Origin: Clostridia bacterium
GTDB lineage: Bacteria; Bacillota; Clostridia; TANB77; CAG-508
NCBI GenBank assembly: GCA_017536685.1
Contig: JAFXGW010000003.1
Span: 11 to 64,010 of the forward strand
Length of the DNA: 64,000 bases
Direction of reading: 5' to 3'
A program made the position numbers and the translations under genes. The notes beneath the pieces were generated by a model that worked only from the letters and a program-made list of their open reading frames with translations, searched no databases and was not told the DNA's origin. Positions 30,679 to 55,261 of the stretch are shown piece by piece. Each line of letters begins with the position of its first letter. Within the stretch, counting starts at the first letter, position 1.

Positions 30679-30754
<76 letters not shown>

Positions 30755-39457: not shown

Positions 39458-41101
39458 ATGAGAGGAAAAATCGTAAATTTATGTATTGGCCTAATGAATA
39501 TTTTATTTGGAATATTGATTATAGCATATACAATGGTAATTCCACAGGATAAAACAATAATGACTGTACAAGAAAATAATATAGTTACATATGTTATTTG
39601 GGGAATTTATATTCTAATGTTTATAACAGCGATAATTAATATTATTCAAAGTTACCATCATAGATCAGATACAGTATTCAACACTGCATATTTATTAGGT
39701 GCATTTATCATAAGTTTTTTATTTATAAAAGAGCCGATAATAGCCATATTTAGTATAACATCAGGGATTATAATCTTTTTTAAAAGCTTAAAAGAAAATT
39801 TAGTAGAATTAAATAGCATGACGGCGATTTCTATAGCTATAGTTATAATGGTAATTACTGTAATTCTTTCTATTTTTACTTTAAATTATGATTCAATAGG
39901 AAAATATATAAAAAATAAAGAAAATGAAAATGAACTGAAATATAAATCTGATTATTTTAAGTATATAACAGAATTAGAAGGAGAATTATATGAAACACCA
40001 TATCTAAATGTAAAAAAAGATGGTAAGTTCGGATATATAAATACAAAAGGCGAATGTATGATTGACTTTTTATATGACTATGCTAGTCCATTTGTTGAGA
40101 TAACAGCTTATGATAAAAAATTTCATATAGCCTTTGTTTGTAAAGATGGAAGTACAACAGTAATTCTAAAAAATGGAAGAGCTGTATTATCTTATAGAAC
40201 AGAAATAGTCAATGAAAATTATCAAGCAAAAATTCAAGAGCTAGAAAATATATATAAAAATTTATTAGGTCAAACTGGAAATATGGTTTATGAAATTCCA
40301 TTAATAAATAGCAATATATCTTCTGCGCCAGTGTATTTAGAAGTTTCGCCAGAATATTCATTTAGATATGATTACAATGAAGAATATGATTTAATTGTAA
40401 CACAATCTAACATGGGACTTGGAGATACTTATGAATTGGCAAAAAAAGATGACTTAGATATAAGAATAAAGTTAGATACTACGAACTTGGATTATGATTC
40501 TAGTAATTTATATTTGTTTTCAAATGGAAATATACCATTTTATGAATTATCTAGAAGAACTCAAGGTTGGTATACTCCATATGGAAAGAAAAATTCAATG
40601 ACTGGTCGAGCTCAAATTTTAGAATTTTATGGTAATGAAAGAATACTTTTAAAAAATTATAATGATAAAACTGTGTATTTTACCGATTTAGAGGGAAATA
40701 AATTATCAGAAACTTATAAAGATATTTTTGTTTGTAATGATGGACGATATATAGTTCAAGACGAAGAAAATGCATTTAAAATCATTGATGATTCCTATAA
40801 TTTAATATTTGAACAAAAATATGCTGCAATTAATCCAAGATTTGTTTCACAGGGGCTGTATTTAGTGATGGATTCAAGTCAAGGTATTAAAGCGAACGAA
40901 TATAAGTTCGCAATGCCAAATTGGAAATTAATGAATTATGATGGAGAAATTATTTTTGAAGGAATAGAACAGATTTATGATTTAATATACGAAATTCCTA
41001 ATGAAAACGAGGATAAAGAAGTTAATTATGAAATTTTTGAAAAGAGATTAAAAGCATTGAATTATAAATTTGTTGGGGATAGATTTTATTCAGAATACTA
41101 A
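39458..41101 (+). CDS. Polytopic membrane protein with C-terminal WG-repeat-like domain
   Basis: 547 aa. About 4 N-terminal TMs are followed by units such as DGKFGYINTKGECMIDFLYDYASPF. It is similar in organisation to 9901-11448. Confidence 0.55.
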   Translation: MRGKIVNLCIGLMNILFGILIIAYTMVIPQDKTIMTVQENNIVTYVIWGIYILMFITAIINIIQSYHHRSDTVFNTAYLLGAFIISFLFIKEPIIAIFSITSGIIIFFKSLKENLVELNSMTAISIAIVIMVITVILSIFTLNYDSIGKYIKNKENENELKYKSDYFKYITELEGELYETPYLNVKKDGKFGYINTKGECMIDFLYDYASPFVEITAYDKKFHIAFVCKDGSTTVILKNGRAVLSYRTEIVNENYQAKIQELENIYKNLLGQTGNMVYEIPLINSNISSAPVYLEVSPEYSFRYDYNEEYDLIVTQSNMGLGDTYELAKKDDLDIRIKLDTTNLDYDSSNLYLFSNGNIPFYELSRRTQGWYTPYGKKNSMTGRAQILEFYGNERILLKNYNDKTVYFTDLEGNKLSETYKDIFVCNDGRYIVQDEENAFKIIDDSYNLIFEQKYAAINPRFVSQGLYLVMDSSQGIKANEYKFAMPNWKLMNYDGEIIFEGIEQIYDLIYEIPNENEDKEVNYEIFEKRLKALNYKFVGDRFYSEY

Positions 41102-41137
41102 AATTGGAAATTAAAATAAAATATATTAGTTAATAAT

Positions 41138-41173
41138 AAAATAGAACTATTTTGTTGATAGTTCTATTTTTGT
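41138..41173 (+). terminator. Rho-independent terminator
   Basis: AAATAGAACTAT (41139-41150) pairs with ATAGTTCTATTT (41158-41169), followed by a T-run. Confidence 0.85.
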
Positions 41174-41249
41174 TTACACTTATATAAAAAATTAATAATA
41201 TTTTATTTATAATTGTGTAGATAAAATTGAATTATGGAGGTATGAAAAT

Positions 41250-41432
41250 ATGGATAAAATTAGTAATAATCAAAAAATTAAATGCACAGTTGAAAGTTGC
41301 AGCTTTAATAACTGTGATAACAACATTTGTGAATTAAAACAAATTGAAGTAAAAGCTTGTCCTGGATGTTCAACAGGAACACCGCAAGATGAATCTATGT
41401 GTGGAAGTTATCAATGCAAATGTAATCACTAA
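41250..41432 (+). CDS. DUF1540-like small cysteine-rich protein
   Basis: 60 aa. The duplicated pattern KCTVESCSFN...CELKQIEVKAC resembles DUF1540. SD GGAGG lies upstream. Confidence 0.6.
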   Translation: MDKISNNQKIKCTVESCSFNNCDNNICELKQIEVKACPGCSTGTPQDESMCGSYQCKCNH

Positions 41433-41436
41433 TATT

Positions 41437-41696
41437 CAAATAATAATTTGTCGGGAATATTATATAAGTTGCTCTCGGTTAATTTATATATTTTGTGTAA
41501 TTCGTTTTCTTACTGGTCGGGTGATAATTTGAAAATTGATCGCTCGTAGAAAGCTTTAAAAAGCTTTACTTCGCTAATTTTCAAATCATCAAAGCTTTCG
41601 GCGCACCCTCCCATTGCTGCGCGAAAACTTTTACAAAAATATATAAATTAACCTGTGGCAACATTTAGATTAAACAGCTCGACAAATTATTATTTG
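41437..41696. repeat. ~260-nt long imperfect inverted repeat / extended hairpin with GC-enriched asymmetric interior
   Basis: Three paired blocks were found by hand. 41437-41453 pairs perfectly with 41680-41696 (17 bp). 41477-41494 pairs perfectly with 41636-41653 (18 bp). 41522-41537 pairs with 41576-41591 (16 bp, 1 mismatch). The apex is AAAGC-loop-GCTTT at 41550-41567. A side hairpin GCGCA/TGCGC lies at 41601-41621. Confidence 0.8.
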
Positions 41697-41712
41697 TACA
41701 TATAAAATTCAC

Positions 41713-41741
41713 TTGACAGAGAAGCTACAAGATTATAAAAT
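41713..41741 (+). promoter_or_regulatory. Putative fba promoter (TTGACA-17-TAAAAT)
   Basis: Hexamers at 41713-41718 and 41736-41741. Confidence 0.55.
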
Positions 41742-41776
41742 AGTTAAGGAAATACAAATTTAAAGGAGGGTATATT

Positions 41777-42706
41777 ATGCCATTAGTAACAACAAAAGAA
41801 ATGTTTGAAAAATCAATGAAAGAACATTTCTCAATAGGAGCTTTTAATATAAACAATATGGAGTTTATACAAGCGATTACAGACGCAGCAGAAGAAGCAA
41901 AATCACCAGTTATTTTACAAGTTTCTTCAAGTGCTATAAAATATGCAAGAATGAATTATTTAATCAAAATGGTGGAGGCAGCAGTTGAATCAACAACTAT
42001 TCCAATAGCTCTTCACTTAGATCATGGTCCAGATTTTGAAACATGTAAAATGTGTATAGATGCTGGATTTACATCAGTTATGATTGATGGTTCAAAATAT
42101 GATTTTGAAGAAAATGTTGCATTAACAAAAAAAGTTGTTGAATATGCACATTCAAAAGGAGTTGTAGTAGAAGCAGAACTTGGAAAACTAGCAGGAGTTG
42201 AAGATGAAGTTAATGTTGCTGCTGATGATGCAAGATATACAGATCCAGATCAAGCATATGAATTTGTTCAAAGAACAGGTTGCGATTCACTAGCAATTGC
42301 AATTGGAACAAGTCATGGAGCTTATAAATTTAAAGGTGAAGCAAAATTAAGATTTGATATCTTACAAAAAATAAAAGAAAAATTACCAAATACACCAATA
42401 GTATTACATGGAGCTTCTTCTGTTATTCCAGCTCTTGTAGAAATGTGTAATAATAATGGTGGAAATATTCCAGGAGCAAAAGGATGCCCTGATGAAATGT
42501 TAAGAGAAGCTGGAGTAAATGGAGTTTCAAAAATAAATGTTGATACAGATTTAAGATTAGCGATGACAGCTCAAATAAGAAGAGCGTTTAATGAAGATCC
42601 ATCTGTATTTGATCCTAGAAAATATTTAGGACCAGCTAGAGATGAAATAAAAGCAACAGTTGCACAAAAAATCAATGATGTATTCTGTTCAGCAGGAAAA
42701 GCATAA
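41777..42706 (+). CDS. fba: Class II fructose-1,6-bisphosphate aldolase
   Basis: 309 aa. AFNINNMEF, LHLDHG, SVMIDGS, AIGTSHGAYK and VLHGASS motifs are present. Confidence 0.95.
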   Translation: MPLVTTKEMFEKSMKEHFSIGAFNINNMEFIQAITDAAEEAKSPVILQVSSSAIKYARMNYLIKMVEAAVESTTIPIALHLDHGPDFETCKMCIDAGFTSVMIDGSKYDFEENVALTKKVVEYAHSKGVVVEAELGKLAGVEDEVNVAADDARYTDPDQAYEFVQRTGCDSLAIAIGTSHGAYKFKGEAKLRFDILQKIKEKLPNTPIVLHGASSVIPALVEMCNNNGGNIPGAKGCPDEMLREAGVNGVSKINVDTDLRLAMTAQIRRAFNEDPSVFDPRKYLGPARDEIKATVAQKINDVFCSAGKA

Positions 42707-43044: not shown

Positions 43045-46000
43045 ATGAAAAAAAGAAATAAAAATGTATTTTTATCTATAATTATTTTAATTTGCTTTGC
43101 CTTTTTACCTTATAATGTGATTCTTTCTAAAGCCGATGTAACTGTAGAAGAAAATTATAAATCAAATCAAATTTTTGAAAATACAATTAATAACAGTATA
43201 AATACTTTTGAAAATGAAAATATAATTAATAATAATACAAATATTTTGGGAATTGAAAATAAAATTAATGATGATACCAATACTTTTGAAATTGAAAATA
43301 CAATTAATACAGATGTGAATTCTGTTTCAAATAATCAAGAAAATATTAACGAGAATATTGTAACAAATACATTTAATATAACAGATAGCACATTAAAAAC
43401 AAATTCAACTGAAAAAAAAGAAAGTATTACTTTTAATAATATAGCGGCAATAAACGAAGAATCAGAAGCAACACCTATAGCAGAAACAAGTTTAGTATCA
43501 ACTTTATGGGATACTAACCAATACTCAGCAGGAACAGGGACGCCACTTACAGCAGAGGGAACAGAAATATTAGGGTGGCAAGCTGAAACTAATAAATATT
43601 TACAAATAGATCCAGTGGTTCCAGCTGATGGAAATACATATTTTATTTCTGTTATTATGCCACAGGAATTTTATATAGTAGGTTCAGAACTTGCCCTACA
43701 AGCGGGATACCAAAGCGTAGAATTTACAAAAAATGAAGATATACTGATAAATGAAAATACTACTTTAAAACTTTATGGCTATAGTGGAATTACTAAATAT
43801 ACTTTAAATAATATGGGAATAACTGGTACAATTCAATTAGAAGTTTCTTATGATGTTCGTTTATGGGACAAACAAGCAAACTCATCTATTACAGCAGACG
43901 GAGTAAAACCAATTATAATTACTTTGTCAAGGAAAGATTCAGCTGGAAACATTACAGAGCTTAATAGAGTATTTGTTTCTAAAGTTACAGCTGGAACAGG
44001 AATAGTAGACTCAATGTCGTTACAAGGAATGATTCAAGGTGAGACGTCTTATTCGAATTCCCTAACTGTTCCAAAAGATAAATACATAACAGTTTTTTAT
44101 GAAATTAGCGATAACGAGTTAAAATCTAGAAGAAAGTTCTATCCAAATGCAACAATGACAATTAAACTTCCTTATTATACACATACAGACGGAACTAAAT
44201 ATTATATACCATTTGACCAGGATTCTTTAAAATTTCCAGGAATGAGTTTTTCTTCAAAAGCAGTAGATACAACAAAACTAGAATCGGATGGAATCATAAC
44301 TATTACTTTTACAAATGCATATTGGAATACATCAAAAGTAGTACAGTTTATAGTTGGACCACCAACTGATGAAATATTAGCGTTAGATGTAAATTCTTAT
44401 AGATTTGCAAATGGTAATATTACTATAATGGTAGATGGAAAAAATGGCTCAAAAGGTATACGATATTCTTCAACAAATATGATAATAGCTAATTATCAAA
44501 AAGAAGTCTTGGAAAAAGTATCACTTTCTTCCAGTAGCAGAGCTGTTACAATAGTTGAACGACCAAATGAAGCAGTTTCATTGCTTGGGGGATTCTATTT
44601 GAAAAATACTGGTATTGGAGATAGCTGTGCTAAAACAATAGATATGACATTTGATATCAAAAATACAAATAAAATAAGAGTTACAACAGTAAACACTTTT
44701 GCAGATACCTTACAAGAATATATACTAATAAATTACACATTAGTAGATGAAAATGGAGAAATTGTTTACTTAGACTCAGAGGGAAATAGAGTAACAGCTC
44801 AAACAGACGGAGCAATTAGTCAATGGACATATAATATGAAAAATAGTTATTATGGTTCAACTGAAAAAAGCAATTTGAGAAATAAGTTTGTTCGTTCAAT
44901 GCTTCCTAGCTCTCAAAAAAAATATTATTTTAAAACAATAAATTATACAATAAAAACAATAGAAGCACATGCTTCATTACAACAAAATTCAGCTAGCGCA
45001 ACATTAGTAGCAGCCGGAAACTTTTTAGGATATGTAGATGATAAAAATGGAATATCAGGAGATATAAGCCAAAGTTCAATGGTTGTATCTTCCGAAAATA
45101 TTAGTATTGCAGATTTAAAAGCTACATCAACAACAACATTAAGAGATACAAGTAATCCAACATATACAATTGATAATTTAAATATGAATAAAACAAGTAT
45201 TCGAGCTGGAGAAAGCCTTACTGTTAGTGGAAGATTAAATGCAGTTACATATCCTTATGGAAATTCAACTTGGATTAAAAATATTACATTAGCAGCTGTT
45301 TTACCAAAAGAAATTTCAATAAATGAGCAATCTGTTGTTATAAAAAATGTTAATGGAACTAAAATAAATGGTTTTTCAATAACAAGTGAAAATATATCTG
45401 ATGGTAATAAGCTATGGAAAATAAGGTTTCCTTCAGATATATATATTGGAGCAGCAACTGAAAATTTAAATAATTTTTCATCTGGTTTGAGAATAACTTT
45501 TAGTATGCAATTAGACACTGCTTATACTATGAATAGTACAACATTATATGCAAAAGATATATTTTTTGCAGCAGCATATAAACAAACTAATTCAGCAGAT
45601 GGTTCATATGCGTGGGCTAAAACTACAGATATTTATGATTTGAATGAAAACGGTTCAAAAACGGACGCAATTGCAAGAGCAAGTACAACTGTAACAAAAA
45701 GCTGTCAAATTTCTTCTGAAACTTCAACATTAGATATAAATGACTCAATATCAATAGAAAGACAAGGAATAGTAATTTCAGATTCTAATGATGGCTATTT
45801 ATTATCAGATAAAGATATAGTTCATTATAATTTAGATATTGGCTGTTTTTCAGGCGGTAGAGCTGAAAATGTTTCGTATTATATACCGATACCAAAAAAA
45901 TCTTCAAAAGTAGATAATTTTTTAATAAAACAAAGTTCAACAAGAAATTTTGATTTTATTCTTAAAGAACCGGTTAGTATATCAGGAAATGATTTGTTTA

Positions 46001-48045
46001 ATATAGAATATTCTTTTGAAGAAGGATTAAATTATATAGAAGCACAAGAAGCAACTGATTGGTATACACAAGATGATATTGAAAATGATTCGAGTTTAAA
46101 TATACAAGATGTTACAATTATAAAATTAACAGTAAAAGACGTAGGTATTCAAAATGGTAATCAAACTAGAATAACAGCAAAGTTATTATATGAAGGAGAA
46201 AAATATTTAGAGGAAACTGGTTTTGAAAATATATGGCATAGTGGTGGTTTTTATAAATATATAAGCGGAGACAGAGAAACTGCTGGAAATTATATTACTC
46301 CAGGAATTAAGATGAGTATAAAAAATATAGTTGAATGTGATGATATTACTTTAACTGCTGCTAAAAATATGACCCCCAATATTACAGGAAATGTTAATGA
46401 ATTTGTTGTAGAAAAATCATCATTTGTAAATTTTGAAAATTCACATGATTTATCTTTAATTTCAGTAGAAACTTATAATGTTACATTACAAACTAAAGAT
46501 TATATTTTGGCAAATACTGGTATGTCAGGGATTGAGGCAAATAAAACTTTTGCGATTTCAGTAAAAACAGAAAATGAAGAAGAATTAGATATATTATCTT
46601 CAATAACTGCTGAAAATCCTATAAAAGTAGGAAAATGTGAACAAAAGGATTCTCCTGAATTTACATATAAAATATATAATGCTGATTCTCTTACAGATAA
46701 TTCACAAACAAGATATATAGTGCTTACTTATCAAAGTGATAATGGATTAACAATAAAGCAAAAAATAAATATTAATAGAGAGATAGCAGGTGCTTCTGAT
46801 CCTAAATCAGCAATAGTTGCTGGTAAAAGATATTTAAATTATGATGATACAACAACAGAAGTTACAATTAGTGAAAATTCTGCTTTTACAGCTCAATTTA
46901 TAGTAGAATATATACCAGATAATTATTCAGGACAAAGTTTTGAATTTTCAGACAAACTTCCGAATGGAACAACTTTAGTTCTCGGAAATTTATCTACAAA
47001 TGAAACGCCAACTTATTGGTACTACGAAGTTGGAACTGACGAAAAATCAACTTTTAATTTTACGGATTTTAATTTAATGGGAAAAACAAGTTCAGACAAA
47101 TATAAATTACCAACTGGAATAGATGTTATAGAAGAAAGATTACTGTTAATTGTAGATTTTTCAGAAGTAAAAAATTATTTAGAAGAAAAATCATACGCAG
47201 TCAAAATGAAACTTGGTGGTAACACAAGTATTGAAGATTTTTTAACGGATGATATGCTTTTTACAACAAAGAAGGTAAGTGAGTTTACACTAGATGATAT
47301 ACAAAATGTAAATTTAGGGACCAAATTTAATGTGGGATATTCAGCAAATTTAAGTTTAGGAGCAGAATCTACATATGAAGGAAGAAGATTATCTTTGATT
47401 TTGAAAGCTCCAAATAACATAATGCAAGATACAAGTTTGACGGTAAATGGTTCAACAACATATTATTTAAATTCAGAAAACGAATTTATAATTCCTTTAA
47501 CAGATATAAAAAACATTAAATCAACTATAGAATTAGAATTATTATCAAATACACCAATATATAATAGTGAAAGTTATGAATTTGAAGCTAGTTTATGGGT
47601 TTCAGCAACAGCAAATTTTGAAGCTCCTAAATTTGGAGAAAAAGTTTCAAGTAAAACTTTTACGCTGAATGTAGAAAATTTTAAAAATCCATCTTTGAAA
47701 GTAACGAATATGAATACAAGAATAATACACAGGAAAGACTTATCAGAGACTTTTTCTACCACTTATGAATATATTGCGGCAAAAAATTGTTCTATAACTG
47801 TAGAATTGCAAAAAAAGAATGGAGCTGCATATCAAAAAATGACTGATAAATTGAATAAAGTGAATAATACAACAGTTCATGATATGGGAATATTTAATTT
47901 AACTGCCAAAGAAGGCATAAATACCATAAACTTTAATCTTTCATCTACTACAGAGAATAATACATATAGATTAGTATTTAAAGTATTAGATGAAAATAGT
48001 ACTAAAATATTAGAAATACCATATAACTTTATTGTTATAGACTAA
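43045..48045 (+). CDS. Giant (1666 aa) secreted protein, probable surface/adhesin-like beta-rich protein
   Basis: It has a Sec signal peptide (MKKRNKNVFLSIIILICFAFLPYNVILSKA/DV) and an N-rich degenerate repeat region, followed by ~1500 aa rich in T/S/N/G/Y. I found no LPxTG, no TM anchor and no recognised catalytic motif. Confidence 0.7.
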   Translation: MKKRNKNVFLSIIILICFAFLPYNVILSKADVTVEENYKSNQIFENTINNSINTFENENIINNNTNILGIENKINDDTNTFEIENTINTDVNSVSNNQENINENIVTNTFNITDSTLKTNSTEKKESITFNNIAAINEESEATPIAETSLVSTLWDTNQYSAGTGTPLTAEGTEILGWQAETNKYLQIDPVVPADGNTYFISVIMPQEFYIVGSELALQAGYQSVEFTKNEDILINENTTLKLYGYSGITKYTLNNMGITGTIQLEVSYDVRLWDKQANSSITADGVKPIIITLSRKDSAGNITELNRVFVSKVTAGTGIVDSMSLQGMIQGETSYSNSLTVPKDKYITVFYEISDNELKSRRKFYPNATMTIKLPYYTHTDGTKYYIPFDQDSLKFPGMSFSSKAVDTTKLESDGIITITFTNAYWNTSKVVQFIVGPPTDEILALDVNSYRFANGNITIMVDGKNGSKGIRYSSTNMIIANYQKEVLEKVSLSSSSRAVTIVERPNEAVSLLGGFYLKNTGIGDSCAKTIDMTFDIKNTNKIRVTTVNTFADTLQEYILINYTLVDENGEIVYLDSEGNRVTAQTDGAISQWTYNMKNSYYGSTEKSNLRNKFVRSMLPSSQKKYYFKTINYTIKTIEAHASLQQNSASATLVAAGNFLGYVDDKNGISGDISQSSMVVSSENISIADLKATSTTTLRDTSNPTYTIDNLNMNKTSIRAGESLTVSGRLNAVTYPYGNSTWIKNITLAAVLPKEISINEQSVVIKNVNGTKINGFSITSENISDGNKLWKIRFPSDIYIGAATENLNNFSSGLRITFSMQLDTAYTMNSTTLYAKDIFFAAAYKQTNSADGSYAWAKTTDIYDLNENGSKTDAIARASTTVTKSCQISSETSTLDINDSISIERQGIVISDSNDGYLLSDKDIVHYNLDIGCFSGGRAENVSYYIPIPKKSSKVDNFLIKQSSTRNFDFILKEPVSISGNDLFNIEYSFEEGLNYIEAQEATDWYTQDDIENDSSLNIQDVTIIKLTVKDVGIQNGNQTRITAKLLYEGEKYLEETGFENIWHSGGFYKYISGDRETAGNYITPGIKMSIKNIVECDDITLTAAKNMTPNITGNVNEFVVEKSSFVNFENSHDLSLISVETYNVTLQTKDYILANTGMSGIEANKTFAISVKTENEEELDILSSITAENPIKVGKCEQKDSPEFTYKIYNADSLTDNSQTRYIVLTYQSDNGLTIKQKININREIAGASDPKSAIVAGKRYLNYDDTTTEVTISENSAFTAQFIVEYIPDNYSGQSFEFSDKLPNGTTLVLGNLSTNETPTYWYYEVGTDEKSTFNFTDFNLMGKTSSDKYKLPTGIDVIEERLLLIVDFSEVKNYLEEKSYAVKMKLGGNTSIEDFLTDDMLFTTKKVSEFTLDDIQNVNLGTKFNVGYSANLSLGAESTYEGRRLSLILKAPNNIMQDTSLTVNGSTTYYLNSENEFIIPLTDIKNIKSTIELELLSNTPIYNSESYEFEASLWVSATANFEAPKFGEKVSSKTFTLNVENFKNPSLKVTNMNTRIIHRKDLSETFSTTYEYIAAKNCSITVELQKKNGAAYQKMTDKLNKVNNTTVHDMGIFNLTAKEGINTINFNLSSTTENNTYRLVFKVLDENSTKILEIPYNFIVID
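43174..43310 (+). repeat. Degenerate in-frame repeats (FENxIN / IENxIN units) at the N-terminus of the giant protein
   Basis: GAAAATACAATTAATA occurs at 43177-43192 and 43294-43309. AATACTTTTGAAA occurs at 43201-43213 and 43279-43291. Confidence 0.7.
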
Positions 48046-54658: not shown

Positions 54659-55261
54659 ATGAATCAGATATTGTTTGATAAAAATGTAAGTAAACAAAAA
54701 AGTTATATATTTAAAATTCAATTTATTTTATCTATAATTTTAGCGATAGTTTTTGCATTTTATATTTACATGAATTATAGTGAAAATGAAAATTTAGAAA
54801 GTATTTCAAAAATAATTGATAAAAATTTCGAACTGTCTAAAATATATGAAGTTCAGAAAACATCAAATAATTCTCAAATGTTTTTTGGAAAAATAATTAT
54901 AGATAAAATAAATTTAGAATATAGTGTTTTTAATATGTATAATGAAGATTTATTAAAGATATCGCCATGTAAATTTTATGGAAGTCAACTAGGAGAAAAA
55001 GGAAATATATGCATAGCTGCACATAATTATAATGACAATCGTTTTTTTAGTAGAATTGATGAATTAAAAATAAAAGACACTATAAAACTTATTAATTTGG
55101 AAAATTTAGAATATGAATATATTATATATGATATTTTTGAAACAGAAGAAAATGACTTTTCTATATTGAAAAAAAATAAAAATTTTGAGTTAACACTTTT
55201 GACTTGTAACAATTCAAATAAAAAAAGAATAATAGTAAAAGCATATATGAAAGAGTATTGA
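54659..55261 (+). CDS. Sortase-family transpeptidase
   Basis: 200 aa. It has an N-terminal TM, catalytic His in ICIAAHNY, the TLxTC motif (LTLLTCN), and a downstream Arg (KKRIIVKA). No clear SD lies upstream. Confidence 0.8.
   Translation: MNQILFDKNVSKQKSYIFKIQFILSIILAIVFAFYIYMNYSENENLESISKIIDKNFELSKIYEVQKTSNNSQMFFGKIIIDKINLEYSVFNMYNEDLLKISPCKFYGSQLGEKGNICIAAHNYNDNRFFSRIDELKIKDTIKLINLENLEYEYIIYDIFETEENDFSILKKNKNFELTLLTCNNSNKKRIIVKAYMKEY

What the first reader, a model, noticed from the sequence alone, without database searches (positions are those of the whole stretch)
41437..41696. ~260-nt extended imperfect hairpin with GC-enriched asymmetric central region between a DUF1540 gene and fba (6S-like RNA, other structured RNA, or MITE)
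Hand pairing shows a nested inverted repeat. There is a 17-bp perfect closing stem (41437-41453 / 41680-41696). An 18-bp perfect stem follows (41477-41494 / 41636-41653) and continues after a 1-nt bulge. Next comes GTAA..GTTTTC / GAAAAC..TTAC. An asymmetric interior region follows, with about 18 nt on the 5' side and about 32 nt on the 3' side. The 3' side contains its own small hairpin GCGCA-CCCTCCCATTGC-TGCGC (41601-41621). Then comes a 16-bp stem with one mismatch (41522-41537 / 41576-41591), and an apex AAAGC-loop-GCTTT. The interior is clearly more GC-rich than the surrounding intergenic DNA. A long irregular hairpin with a large central bubble whose 3' strand can form a small hairpin is the general architecture of 6S RNA. 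The element is longer than typical 6S RNA (180-200 nt), and I cannot verify conserved 6S nucleotides by eye. Two alternatives remain: a MITE-like element with 17-bp terminal inverted repeats (I saw no target-site duplication), or a cis-regulatory or processing structure in a DUF1540-fba transcript.
Basis: partly seen in the sequence, partly recalled or inferred. Interest (0 to 1): 0.65.

Follow-up and report, generated by a model that had tools for sequence, protein, structure and literature searches.

The report
Multi-copy palindromic mobile repeat, not 6S
The 260-base hairpin is real, but it is one copy of a short, non-coding, mobile-type repeat (MITE-like) scattered through the genome of an uncultured gut Clostridia bacterium, not a 6S RNA gene, so it is an ordinary kind of feature.

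Summary
The hairpin at 41437-41696 is as described: 17-bp and 18-bp perfect stems, a 16-bp stem with one mismatch, and a GC-enriched asymmetric interior. It folds far better than shuffles on both strands (z -8.8 and -10.4).

It is not a 6S RNA. No Rfam family matches even at E<=10, and both strands fold equally well with almost no G-U pairs.

It is multi-copy. In four independent DNA metagenomes, assembler word depth inside the element is about 4-16 times that of the flanking single-copy DNA. Contigs leave the element exactly at 41437/8 and 41695-7 into at least four other left and three other right flanks. Short forms (~80 nt) and subfamilies with a diverged interior also occur.

Every related lineage examined keeps the order tmk, 545-aa gene, DUF1540, fba and the fba promoter, but lacks this element. 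One relative, 87% identical in the DUF1540 gene, has a plain empty site.

Best reading: a new MITE-like (foldback) non-autonomous repeat, inserted 4 nt after the DUF1540 stop codon and upstream of fba's own promoter.

Unresolved: no target-site duplication, no parent transposase, and no full sequence of another copy. Metatranscriptome contigs suggest passive co-transcription with neighbouring genes.

Interest is low.

The parts
41437..41696 (.). Whole 260-bp palindromic repeat element (MITE-like, foldback type)
   Evidence: Its boundaries are where contigs from other copies diverge from the window: 41437/41438 on the left and 41695-41697 on the right.
41437..41453 (+). Left terminal inverted repeat CAAATAATAATTTGTCG
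   Evidence: Perfect complement of 41680-41696.
41680..41696 (-). Right terminal inverted repeat (CGACAAATTATTATTTG on the + strand)
   Evidence: Depth reaches about 155 (against a flank depth of 9.5) at 41653-41667, in the right arm just inside this repeat, and is about 88 over the repeat itself.
41477..41494 (+). Inner perfect 18-nt arm GGTTAATTTATATATTTT
   Evidence: Exact inverted match to 41636-41653.
41636..41653 (-). Partner of the inner 18-nt arm
41522..41537 (+). Apical 16-nt arm with one mismatch (A41526 against C41587)
   Evidence: pair I4. Most other copies carry T at 41587, which restores the pair.
41576..41591 (-). Partner of the apical arm
41550..41567 (.). Apex: two copies of the self-complementary octamer AAAGCTTT; a third copy lies at 41591-41598
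   Evidence: Sequence read directly. Apex hairpin in the MFE structures.
41601..41622 (.). Small GC-rich hairpin GCGCA-CCCTCCCATTGC-TGCGC. It belongs to roughly 14-19 extra nucleotides found only in the right arm, which cause the asymmetry.
   Evidence: Self-alignment of the element against its reverse complement. The segment 41592-41625 is 62% GC.
41250..41432 (+). Flanking gene: 60-aa DUF1540 protein. Its stop codon ends 4 nt before the element.
   Evidence: Pfam PF07561 on record.
41713..41741 (+). fba promoter-like site TTGACA-17-TAAAAT, 16 nt downstream of the element and conserved in relatives that lack the element
   Evidence: Alignments of the relatives' intergenic regions.
41777..42706 (+). 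Flanking gene: class II fructose-bisphosphate aldolase (fba)

Best explanation
The feature is one copy of a family of short, non-coding, nearly fully palindromic dispersed repeats. It is a MITE-like, foldback-type non-autonomous mobile element in the genome of an uncultured low-GC gut Clostridia bacterium.

Shown:
- The 260-bp unit has 17-bp perfect terminal inverted repeats and no credible ORF.
- It occurs at several other loci with unrelated flanks.
- It has short (~80 nt) and interior-diverged variants.
- It is absent from the orthologous DUF1540-fba spacer of all related lineages examined.

Inferred:
- Copies are moved in trans by a transposase that binds the terminal repeats. That transposase would be encoded elsewhere in the genome or now lost.
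- The long hairpin is a by-product of the two ends being inverted copies of each other, not a structure selected in an RNA.
- At this locus the element landed 4 nt after the DUF1540 stop codon. Most relatives have a short terminator hairpin there. The site is upstream of the fba promoter, so the fba core promoter is left intact.
- The element is probably carried passively in the 3' end of the DUF1540 transcript.
For: Structure. The palindrome has only 5 of 97 and 2 of 89 G-U pairs on the two strands, and the two strands fold with equal energy.

Multi-copy status: in DNA metagenomes X1, X2, X5 and X6, word depth is 35-155 inside 41437-41696 against 7-11 in the flanks.
- Contigs run out of the element at 41437/8 and 41695-7 into other sequences, and the same ones recur in independent runs. 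Examples are ...TTTTGTTTTTTTA| on the left, and |ATAATGAAAGGAGTTTTTATGGG and |ACAGTGTTGGAGGAGAATGCATG on the right.
- In X1 alone there are at least 4 other left flanks and at least 3 other right flanks.
- The depths of those other-flank contigs track the depth of the window's own flank across runs, at ratios of roughly 0.6-1.6.
- Logan contigs of this locus break inside the element at 41569, as expected at a repeat.

Family variants: joints 41481>41663 (five runs) and 41484>41663 give ~80-nt short forms. A ~96% identical strain has an 81-nt form at this very locus (41460>41640). Other copies have diverged interiors that keep CTTGCTGG.

Presence or absence: 23 loci from at least 8 related lineages keep the order tmk, 545-aa gene, DUF1540, fba. 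Their spacers are 126-287 nt and contain no such element. Run X25 holds an 87%-identical relative with an empty site.

Not an RNA family.

Not coding: no predicted protein anywhere matches any frame of the element.

Definition of a bacterial MITE (TIRs, no transposase, long stem-loop, usually <200 bp but up to ~400 bp): PMC3184786.
Against: - No target-site duplication flanks this copy (...TAATATT | element | TACATAT...).
- No insertion sequence with matching ends was found in the window, in 20 kb of extra scaffold, or in any collection searched.
- No other copy could be retrieved as a full sequence. Copy number and flanks rest on assembler contigs and word depth, not on a closed genome.
- That the other copies sit in the same genome is inferred from co-varying depth only.
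- The two perfect stems (17 and 18 bp) separated by poorly matching segments could also reflect selection on a hairpin.
- The apical mismatch is repaired differently in different copies: A-T in most, and possibly G-C in an X25 copy. That hints at pressure to keep pairing.
Confidence: 0.8

Rival explanations
1. It is a 6S RNA gene or another dedicated single-copy structured non-coding RNA gene. Its rod-with-bubble shape would mimic open promoter DNA and sequester RNA polymerase.
For: The overall shape is a long irregular hairpin with an asymmetric central region and a small 3'-side hairpin. No Rfam 6S hit appears elsewhere in the 107 kb of this genome that I could scan, so a competing 6S was not found.
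Against: - No 6S or other Rfam match on either strand at E<=10.
- At 260 nt it is longer than the usual 6S RNA (about 180-200 nt; my own knowledge).
- The fold is strand-symmetric with almost no G-U pairs.
- It is multi-copy with many flanks.
- It is absent at the same locus in all relatives.
- No promoter or terminator defines a transcript.
Confidence: 0.02
2. It is a mobile repeat by origin that has been put to use at the RNA level. On this view the long hairpin now serves as the 3' end, stabiliser or processing site (RNase III type) of the DUF1540 mRNA. In other copies it would act in the 5' leaders of downstream genes, as proposed for Correia, ERIC and BOX elements.
For: - The element sits exactly where most relatives have a short terminator hairpin, and the window has no other terminator there.
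- In metatranscriptome X10, a contig joins the DUF1540 coding sequence to the element (41253-41515). Two other copies are joined to their own flanks. Neighbouring non-transcribed DNA (40994-41228, 41699-41745) has zero depth, which argues against plain DNA carry-over.
- Two other copies end 7-8 nt before a ribosome-binding site, about 17-21 nt before the ATG.
- There are hints of repaired pairing at 41526/41587.
Against: - There is no U-tract after any stem.
- The RNA evidence is contigs only, with no strand and no ends.
- Co-transcription of an intergenic insert is expected without any function.
- One relative has no hairpin at all at this site.
- Without sequences of other copies, covariation could not be tested.
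Confidence: 0.13
3. It is a dispersed palindromic repeat that does not spread by a TIR-binding transposase. Candidates are REP/BIME-like units moved by a RAYT (REP-associated tyrosine transposase), an IS200/IS605-type single-strand hairpin element (PATE, palindrome-associated transposable element), or spread by recombination.
For: No target-site duplication and no matching insertion sequence were found. The unit is palindromic over almost its whole length rather than only at the ends.
Against: - At 260 bp it is far larger than REP units.
- It has true terminal inverted repeats, which IS200/IS605 derivatives lack.
- The left flanks of different copies share no common tetranucleotide (TTTA, TAGA, AGTT, TATT), unlike IS200/IS605 targets.
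- No HUH (His-hydrophobic-His nuclease) or RAYT gene was looked for beyond the window, so this is not excluded.
Confidence: 0.05

Closest known systems
Bacterial MITEs that fold into long hairpins, e.g. Correia elements of Neisseria and ERIC/IRU of enterobacteria
   Same: Short and non-coding, with terminal inverted repeats and many intergenic copies next to gene starts and ends. Presence or absence is polymorphic between relatives, long and internally deleted short forms coexist, and the whole unit folds into a very stable stem-loop (this work; PMC3184786).
   Different: No sequence similarity to any of them. It is longer (260 bp against about 100-160 bp). No TA or other target duplication was seen. 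No promoter boxes, IHF site or RNase III processing have been shown. The host is an uncultured low-GC Clostridia lineage.
Firmicute small repeats: RUP of Streptococcus pneumoniae (IS630-Spn1 derived) and bcr1 of the Bacillus cereus group
   Same: Small mobile repeats in the same phylum, intergenic and co-transcribed with neighbours (my own knowledge and PMC3184786).
   Different: RUP is 107 bp with a TA duplication and a known parent insertion sequence. bcr1 is ~155 bp and folds into two separate stem-loops. Here there is a single 260-nt hairpin, no TA rule in the flanks and no parent found.
6S RNA (Rfam RF00013)
   Same: A long imperfect hairpin with an enlarged central region.
   Different: No covariance-model match. 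The element is multi-copy, strand-symmetric, absent from relatives at this locus, and longer.
Rho-independent terminator of the DUF1540 gene in relatives
   Same: It occupies the same few nucleotides after the DUF1540 stop codon, and it is a hairpin.
   Different: It is roughly 10 times longer, has no T-tract, and its sequence is unrelated to the relatives' hairpins.

Membership tests
6S RNA | Match to the Rfam 6S covariance model (conserved closing stem, central bubble, terminal loop nucleotides) | tested here: not met
   No hit at gathering score in the window. No 6S hit on either strand of 41100-41900 at E<=10.
6S RNA | Single-copy gene conserved among related species | tested here: not met
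   About 4-16 times depth and at least 4 other flanks on the left and at least 3 on the right. Absent from the DUF1540-fba spacer of all relatives.
6S RNA | Structure selected in the RNA of one strand (G-U pairs, strand asymmetry) | tested here: not met
   -81.2 against -84.3 kcal/mol on the two strands. G-U pairs are 5 of 97 and 2 of 89.
6S RNA | Abundant stable ~180-200 nt transcript that binds RNA polymerase holoenzyme and templates pRNA | not testable with these tools
   Only unstranded metatranscriptome contigs are available.
MITE (miniature inverted-repeat transposable element) | Small (usually <200 bp, up to ~400 bp) and without a transposase gene | tested here: met
   260 bp. The longest internal ORFs are 33-34 aa. 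No predicted protein matches any frame. Size range from PMC3184786.
MITE (miniature inverted-repeat transposable element) | Terminal inverted repeats | tested here: met
   17 bp perfect, 22 bp at 91%.
MITE (miniature inverted-repeat transposable element) | Multiple dispersed copies with unrelated flanks | tested here: met
   The same alternative flanks recur in four independent runs. This rests on contigs, not on a closed genome.
MITE (miniature inverted-repeat transposable element) | Target-site duplication (direct repeats) flanking the element | tested here: not met
   Flanks are ...CACTAATATT and TACATATAAA...: no direct repeat. Comparison with the 87%-identical empty site is too diverged to reveal one. 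Left and right flanks of other copies could not be paired.
MITE (miniature inverted-repeat transposable element) | Parent insertion sequence with matching ends that supplies transposase | tested here: inconclusive
   None in the window or the 20 kb beside it. Exact-pattern scans of GTDB genomes, JGI metagenomes and IMG/VR gave only chance hits.
MITE (miniature inverted-repeat transposable element) | Insertion polymorphism: filled and empty orthologous sites | tested here: met
   Filled in all 7 contigs of this species. Empty in an 87%-identical relative and in other lineages.
MITE (miniature inverted-repeat transposable element) | Folds into a long stable stem-loop | tested here: met
IS200/IS605-derived palindromic elements (PATE) | No terminal inverted repeats; insertion 3' of a fixed tetra- or pentanucleotide | tested here: not met
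   A perfect TIR is present. Left flanks end in TTTA, TAGA, AGTT and TATT.
Intrinsic terminator | GC-rich stem followed by a T-run | tested here: not met
   0 terminator-like sites in 41050-41850.

The most novel reading that the evidence does not exclude
The few nucleotides after the DUF1540 stop codon may be a preferred landing site for unrelated palindromic elements. Four different ones sit there in four lineages: 260 nt in the window, 211 nt in L046, ~85 nt in L038, and a related ~100-120 nt one in L042. This would point to hairpin- or terminator-targeted insertion. Alternatively it would point to selection for these long hairpins as replacement transcript ends, making the family an RNA-level module that sets the 3' ends or 5' leaders of neighbouring genes rather than junk.
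Probability: 0.12. Interest if true: 0.5.

Novelty: new member of a known kind. Interest (0 to 1): 0.2.

Why it matters
The main value is a correction. A striking 260-nt hairpin next to a core glycolysis gene should not be annotated as 6S RNA or as an fba regulator.

It adds a previously uncatalogued small mobile repeat family from an uncultured ruminant-gut Clostridia lineage. Such repeats break metagenome assemblies: Logan contigs end inside it. They can also be mistaken for RNA genes.

If the hairpin has been adopted as a transcript end or processing site, it would be a modest example of exaptation of a mobile element.

Tried and rejected
- **Rfam.** Searched at gathering score over the window and over 43 kb of adjoining scaffold, and at E<=10 over 41100-41900. 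Only a tRNA at 30679-30751 and chance microRNA/snoRNA hits turned up.
- **Second copy in the window.** Looked with TIR and inner-stem patterns allowing 3 mismatches, and with blastn at word size 7. None found.
- **Exact-pattern scans.** The GC core 22-mer in GTDB genomes gave 0 hits. The right-arm 22-mer gave 2 hits in ~50% GC contigs; these lie in the 3' end of a phage portal gene and share only 22-28 nt, so they are chance. The TIR 19-mer in JGI metagenomes gave 20 single hits, none of them the element. IMG/VR gave 0 hits.
- **blastn against plasmids and phages.** Nothing.
- **Fetching other copies through mis-called ORFs.** I searched the protein collection with all open frames of the element. 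No hit at E<=10.
- **Walking 10 kb beyond each window end on the same scaffold.** No further copy.
- **Relationship to the 211-nt palindrome at the same site in L046.** Local alignment is no better than shuffles (z about 0), so they are unrelated.
- **The 20-nt perfect inverted repeat at 54720/54895.** It lies inside a 200-aa ORF and is not an element.
- **IS630-type TA target rule.** The flanks do not fit it.

Full report
**Observation**

- The inverted-repeat finder reports the 17-nt terminal arms. They are perfect, and extend to 22 nt at 91%.
- It also reports the arms around 41477-41494 / 41636-41653 and the 16-nt apical arms with one mismatch.
- Pattern searches confirm that the 17-mer and the 18-mer each occur exactly twice in the window, once on each strand.
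- As RNA the + strand folds at -81.2 kcal/mol and the - strand at -84.3, against about -43 for dinucleotide shuffles. That gives z -8.8 and -10.4. As DNA, z is -9.2.
- The interior is 39% GC in a 26% GC window, in the top 1.6% of windows.
This is the most prominent long-range inverted repeat in the 64 kb.

**Setting**

The element starts 4 nt after the stop codon of a 60-aa DUF1540 gene (41250-41432). It ends 16 nt before a near-consensus promoter, TTGACA-17-TAAAAT at 41713-41741, in front of fba at 41777-42706.

The window matches metagenome scaffolds from gut samples. The nearest named relatives are annotated only as 'MAG: Clostridia bacterium'.

**It is not a known RNA family**

Rfam at gathering thresholds finds only a tRNA in the window. 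With permissive filters and E<=10 on 41100-41900, only chance microRNA/snoRNA hits appear and 6S does not.

The fold is made almost entirely of Watson-Crick pairs. G-U pairs are 5 of 97 on one strand and 2 of 89 on the other. Both strands fold equally well. That is the signature of a DNA palindrome rather than of a structure selected in one RNA strand.

**It is multi-copy**

I laid the assembled contigs of public runs on the region.
- In four DNA gut metagenomes (X1, X2, X5, X6) the flanks have word depth 7-11. Inside 41437-41696 the depth is 35-155.
- Contigs leave the element precisely at 41437/41438 and at 41695-41697 into unrelated sequence, and the same alternative flanks recur in independent runs.
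- In X1 alone there are at least four other left flanks and three other right flanks.
- Two right flanks carry a ribosome-binding site 7-8 nt after the element and an ATG within about 20 nt. One left flank ends in a T-rich tail.
- The depths of these other-flank contigs follow that of the window's own flank from run to run. This suggests that they lie in the same genome.
- The Logan contigs of this locus stop inside the element at 41569, as assemblers do at repeats.

The family has variants.
- A joint 41481>41663 in five runs and a joint 41484>41663 define ~80-nt short forms.
- A ~96% identical strain carries an 81-nt form at this same locus (41460>41640).
- Some copies share the arms but have a diverged interior that keeps the motif CTTGCTGG.

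**It is absent from relatives**

I used Fba and the neighbouring 547-aa protein to find relatives, then fetched 23 loci from at least eight lineages.
- All keep the gene order tmk, 545-aa gene, DUF1540, fba, and all keep the fba promoter block AAAATTCACTTGACA...AGATTATAAAATAG.
- None contains this element (blastn).
- Most have a short terminator-like hairpin after DUF1540.
- Run X25 contains an 87%-identical relative whose spacer is simply TTAATATAAAAATTCACTTGACATACCCTTTG between positions 41433 and 41728. That is an empty site.
- Within the window's own species the element is present in all seven contigs. Only one substitution lies inside it, 41545 C>T.

**Interpretation**

The element has these properties:
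- It is small and non-coding. No ORF exceeds 34 aa inside it, and no predicted protein matches any frame.
- It has perfect terminal inverted repeats.
- It has several dispersed copies.
- It has internally deleted short forms.
- Filled and empty orthologous sites both exist.
- It forms a very stable whole-length stem-loop.

These are the defining properties of a bacterial MITE as reviewed in PMC3184786. I therefore read it as a new MITE-like, foldback-type repeat.

The step that a transposase acting in trans moves it is inferred, not shown. Two defining features are missing:
- No target-site duplication flanks this copy.
- I found no insertion sequence with the same ends.

The accessible collections did not contain the family. 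Exact-pattern scans of GTDB genomes, JGI metagenomes and IMG/VR, and blastn against plasmids and phages, gave nothing or chance hits. So I could not obtain full sequences of other copies, pair their flanks, or test covariation.

**Possible secondary role**

The element occupies the place of the DUF1540 terminator, and the window has no terminator-like site there.

In the one metatranscriptome that holds it (X10), a contig joins the DUF1540 coding sequence to the element (41253-41515). Two other copies are joined to their own flanks. Adjacent non-transcribed stretches have zero depth.

This fits passive co-transcription, and it leaves open an adopted role as a transcript-end or processing hairpin. 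The contigs carry no strand or end information, so it remains a minority rival.

**Verdict**

The hairpin is real and the 6S idea fails. It is a new member of a known kind and of low general interest.

Noticed in passing
L046:11946-12156 (also L047); L038:5989-6062 (also L039-L041); L042, about 380-483: In related lineages the same spot after the DUF1540 stop codon holds other, unrelated palindromic inserts. One is a 211-nt element with ~24-nt inverted ends (GGATTTTTTAGTTAAAAATTATTT...). Another is an ~85-nt GC-rich palindrome (ATGATTTTGGGGACGGAGCCAAAAATCAT...), with a related ~100-120-nt one in L042. The site may be a hotspot for palindromic elements.
   Followed up: partly
window 41460/41640, in run X7; 41481/41663, in runs X1, X2, X5, X6, X7: A ~96% identical strain carries an 81-nt internally deleted form of the element at the same locus. 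Elsewhere, ~80-nt short forms made of just the outer arms exist. Long palindromes here seem prone to internal deletion.
   Followed up: partly
window 41550-41557, 41560-41567, 41591-41598: The self-complementary octamer AAAGCTTT, which contains AAGCTT, occurs three times in the interior of the element.
   Followed up: no
window 41679-41708: The right terminal repeat supplies a -35-like TCGACA. With TAAAAT in the flank 18 nt later, it forms a promoter-like hybrid site (10 of 12 matches) pointing at fba, upstream of the native fba promoter.
   Followed up: no
L008:232-253 and L009:3417-3438: The only GTDB hits to the right-arm 22-mer are in ~50% GC MAG contigs. In L008 the match lies in the 3' end of a phage portal gene next to a large terminase gene. 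Immediately beyond it in both contigs is a GC-rich palindromic element (GCCTTCCCC...GGGGAAGGC). The 22-mer match itself is chance.
   Followed up: partly
window 43045-48045; L002:4285-5672: The 1666-aa repeat-rich secreted protein downstream of fba is replaced in another sample of the same species by a 273-aa ORF plus a 1368-aa ORF. In relatives this position holds 417-945-aa genes or smpB directly. It is a variable surface-protein locus.
   Followed up: no
window 54720-54739 / 54895-54914: A perfect 20-nt inverted repeat 155 nt apart lies inside a 200-aa ORF (54659-55261). This is probably a chance feature of AT-rich coding sequence.
   Followed up: partly
window 41932, 41965, 42055, 42088: The window differs from scaffold L001 of the same species at four positions in fba, although it is identical across the element. 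The window is therefore a slightly different strain or assembly.
   Followed up: no
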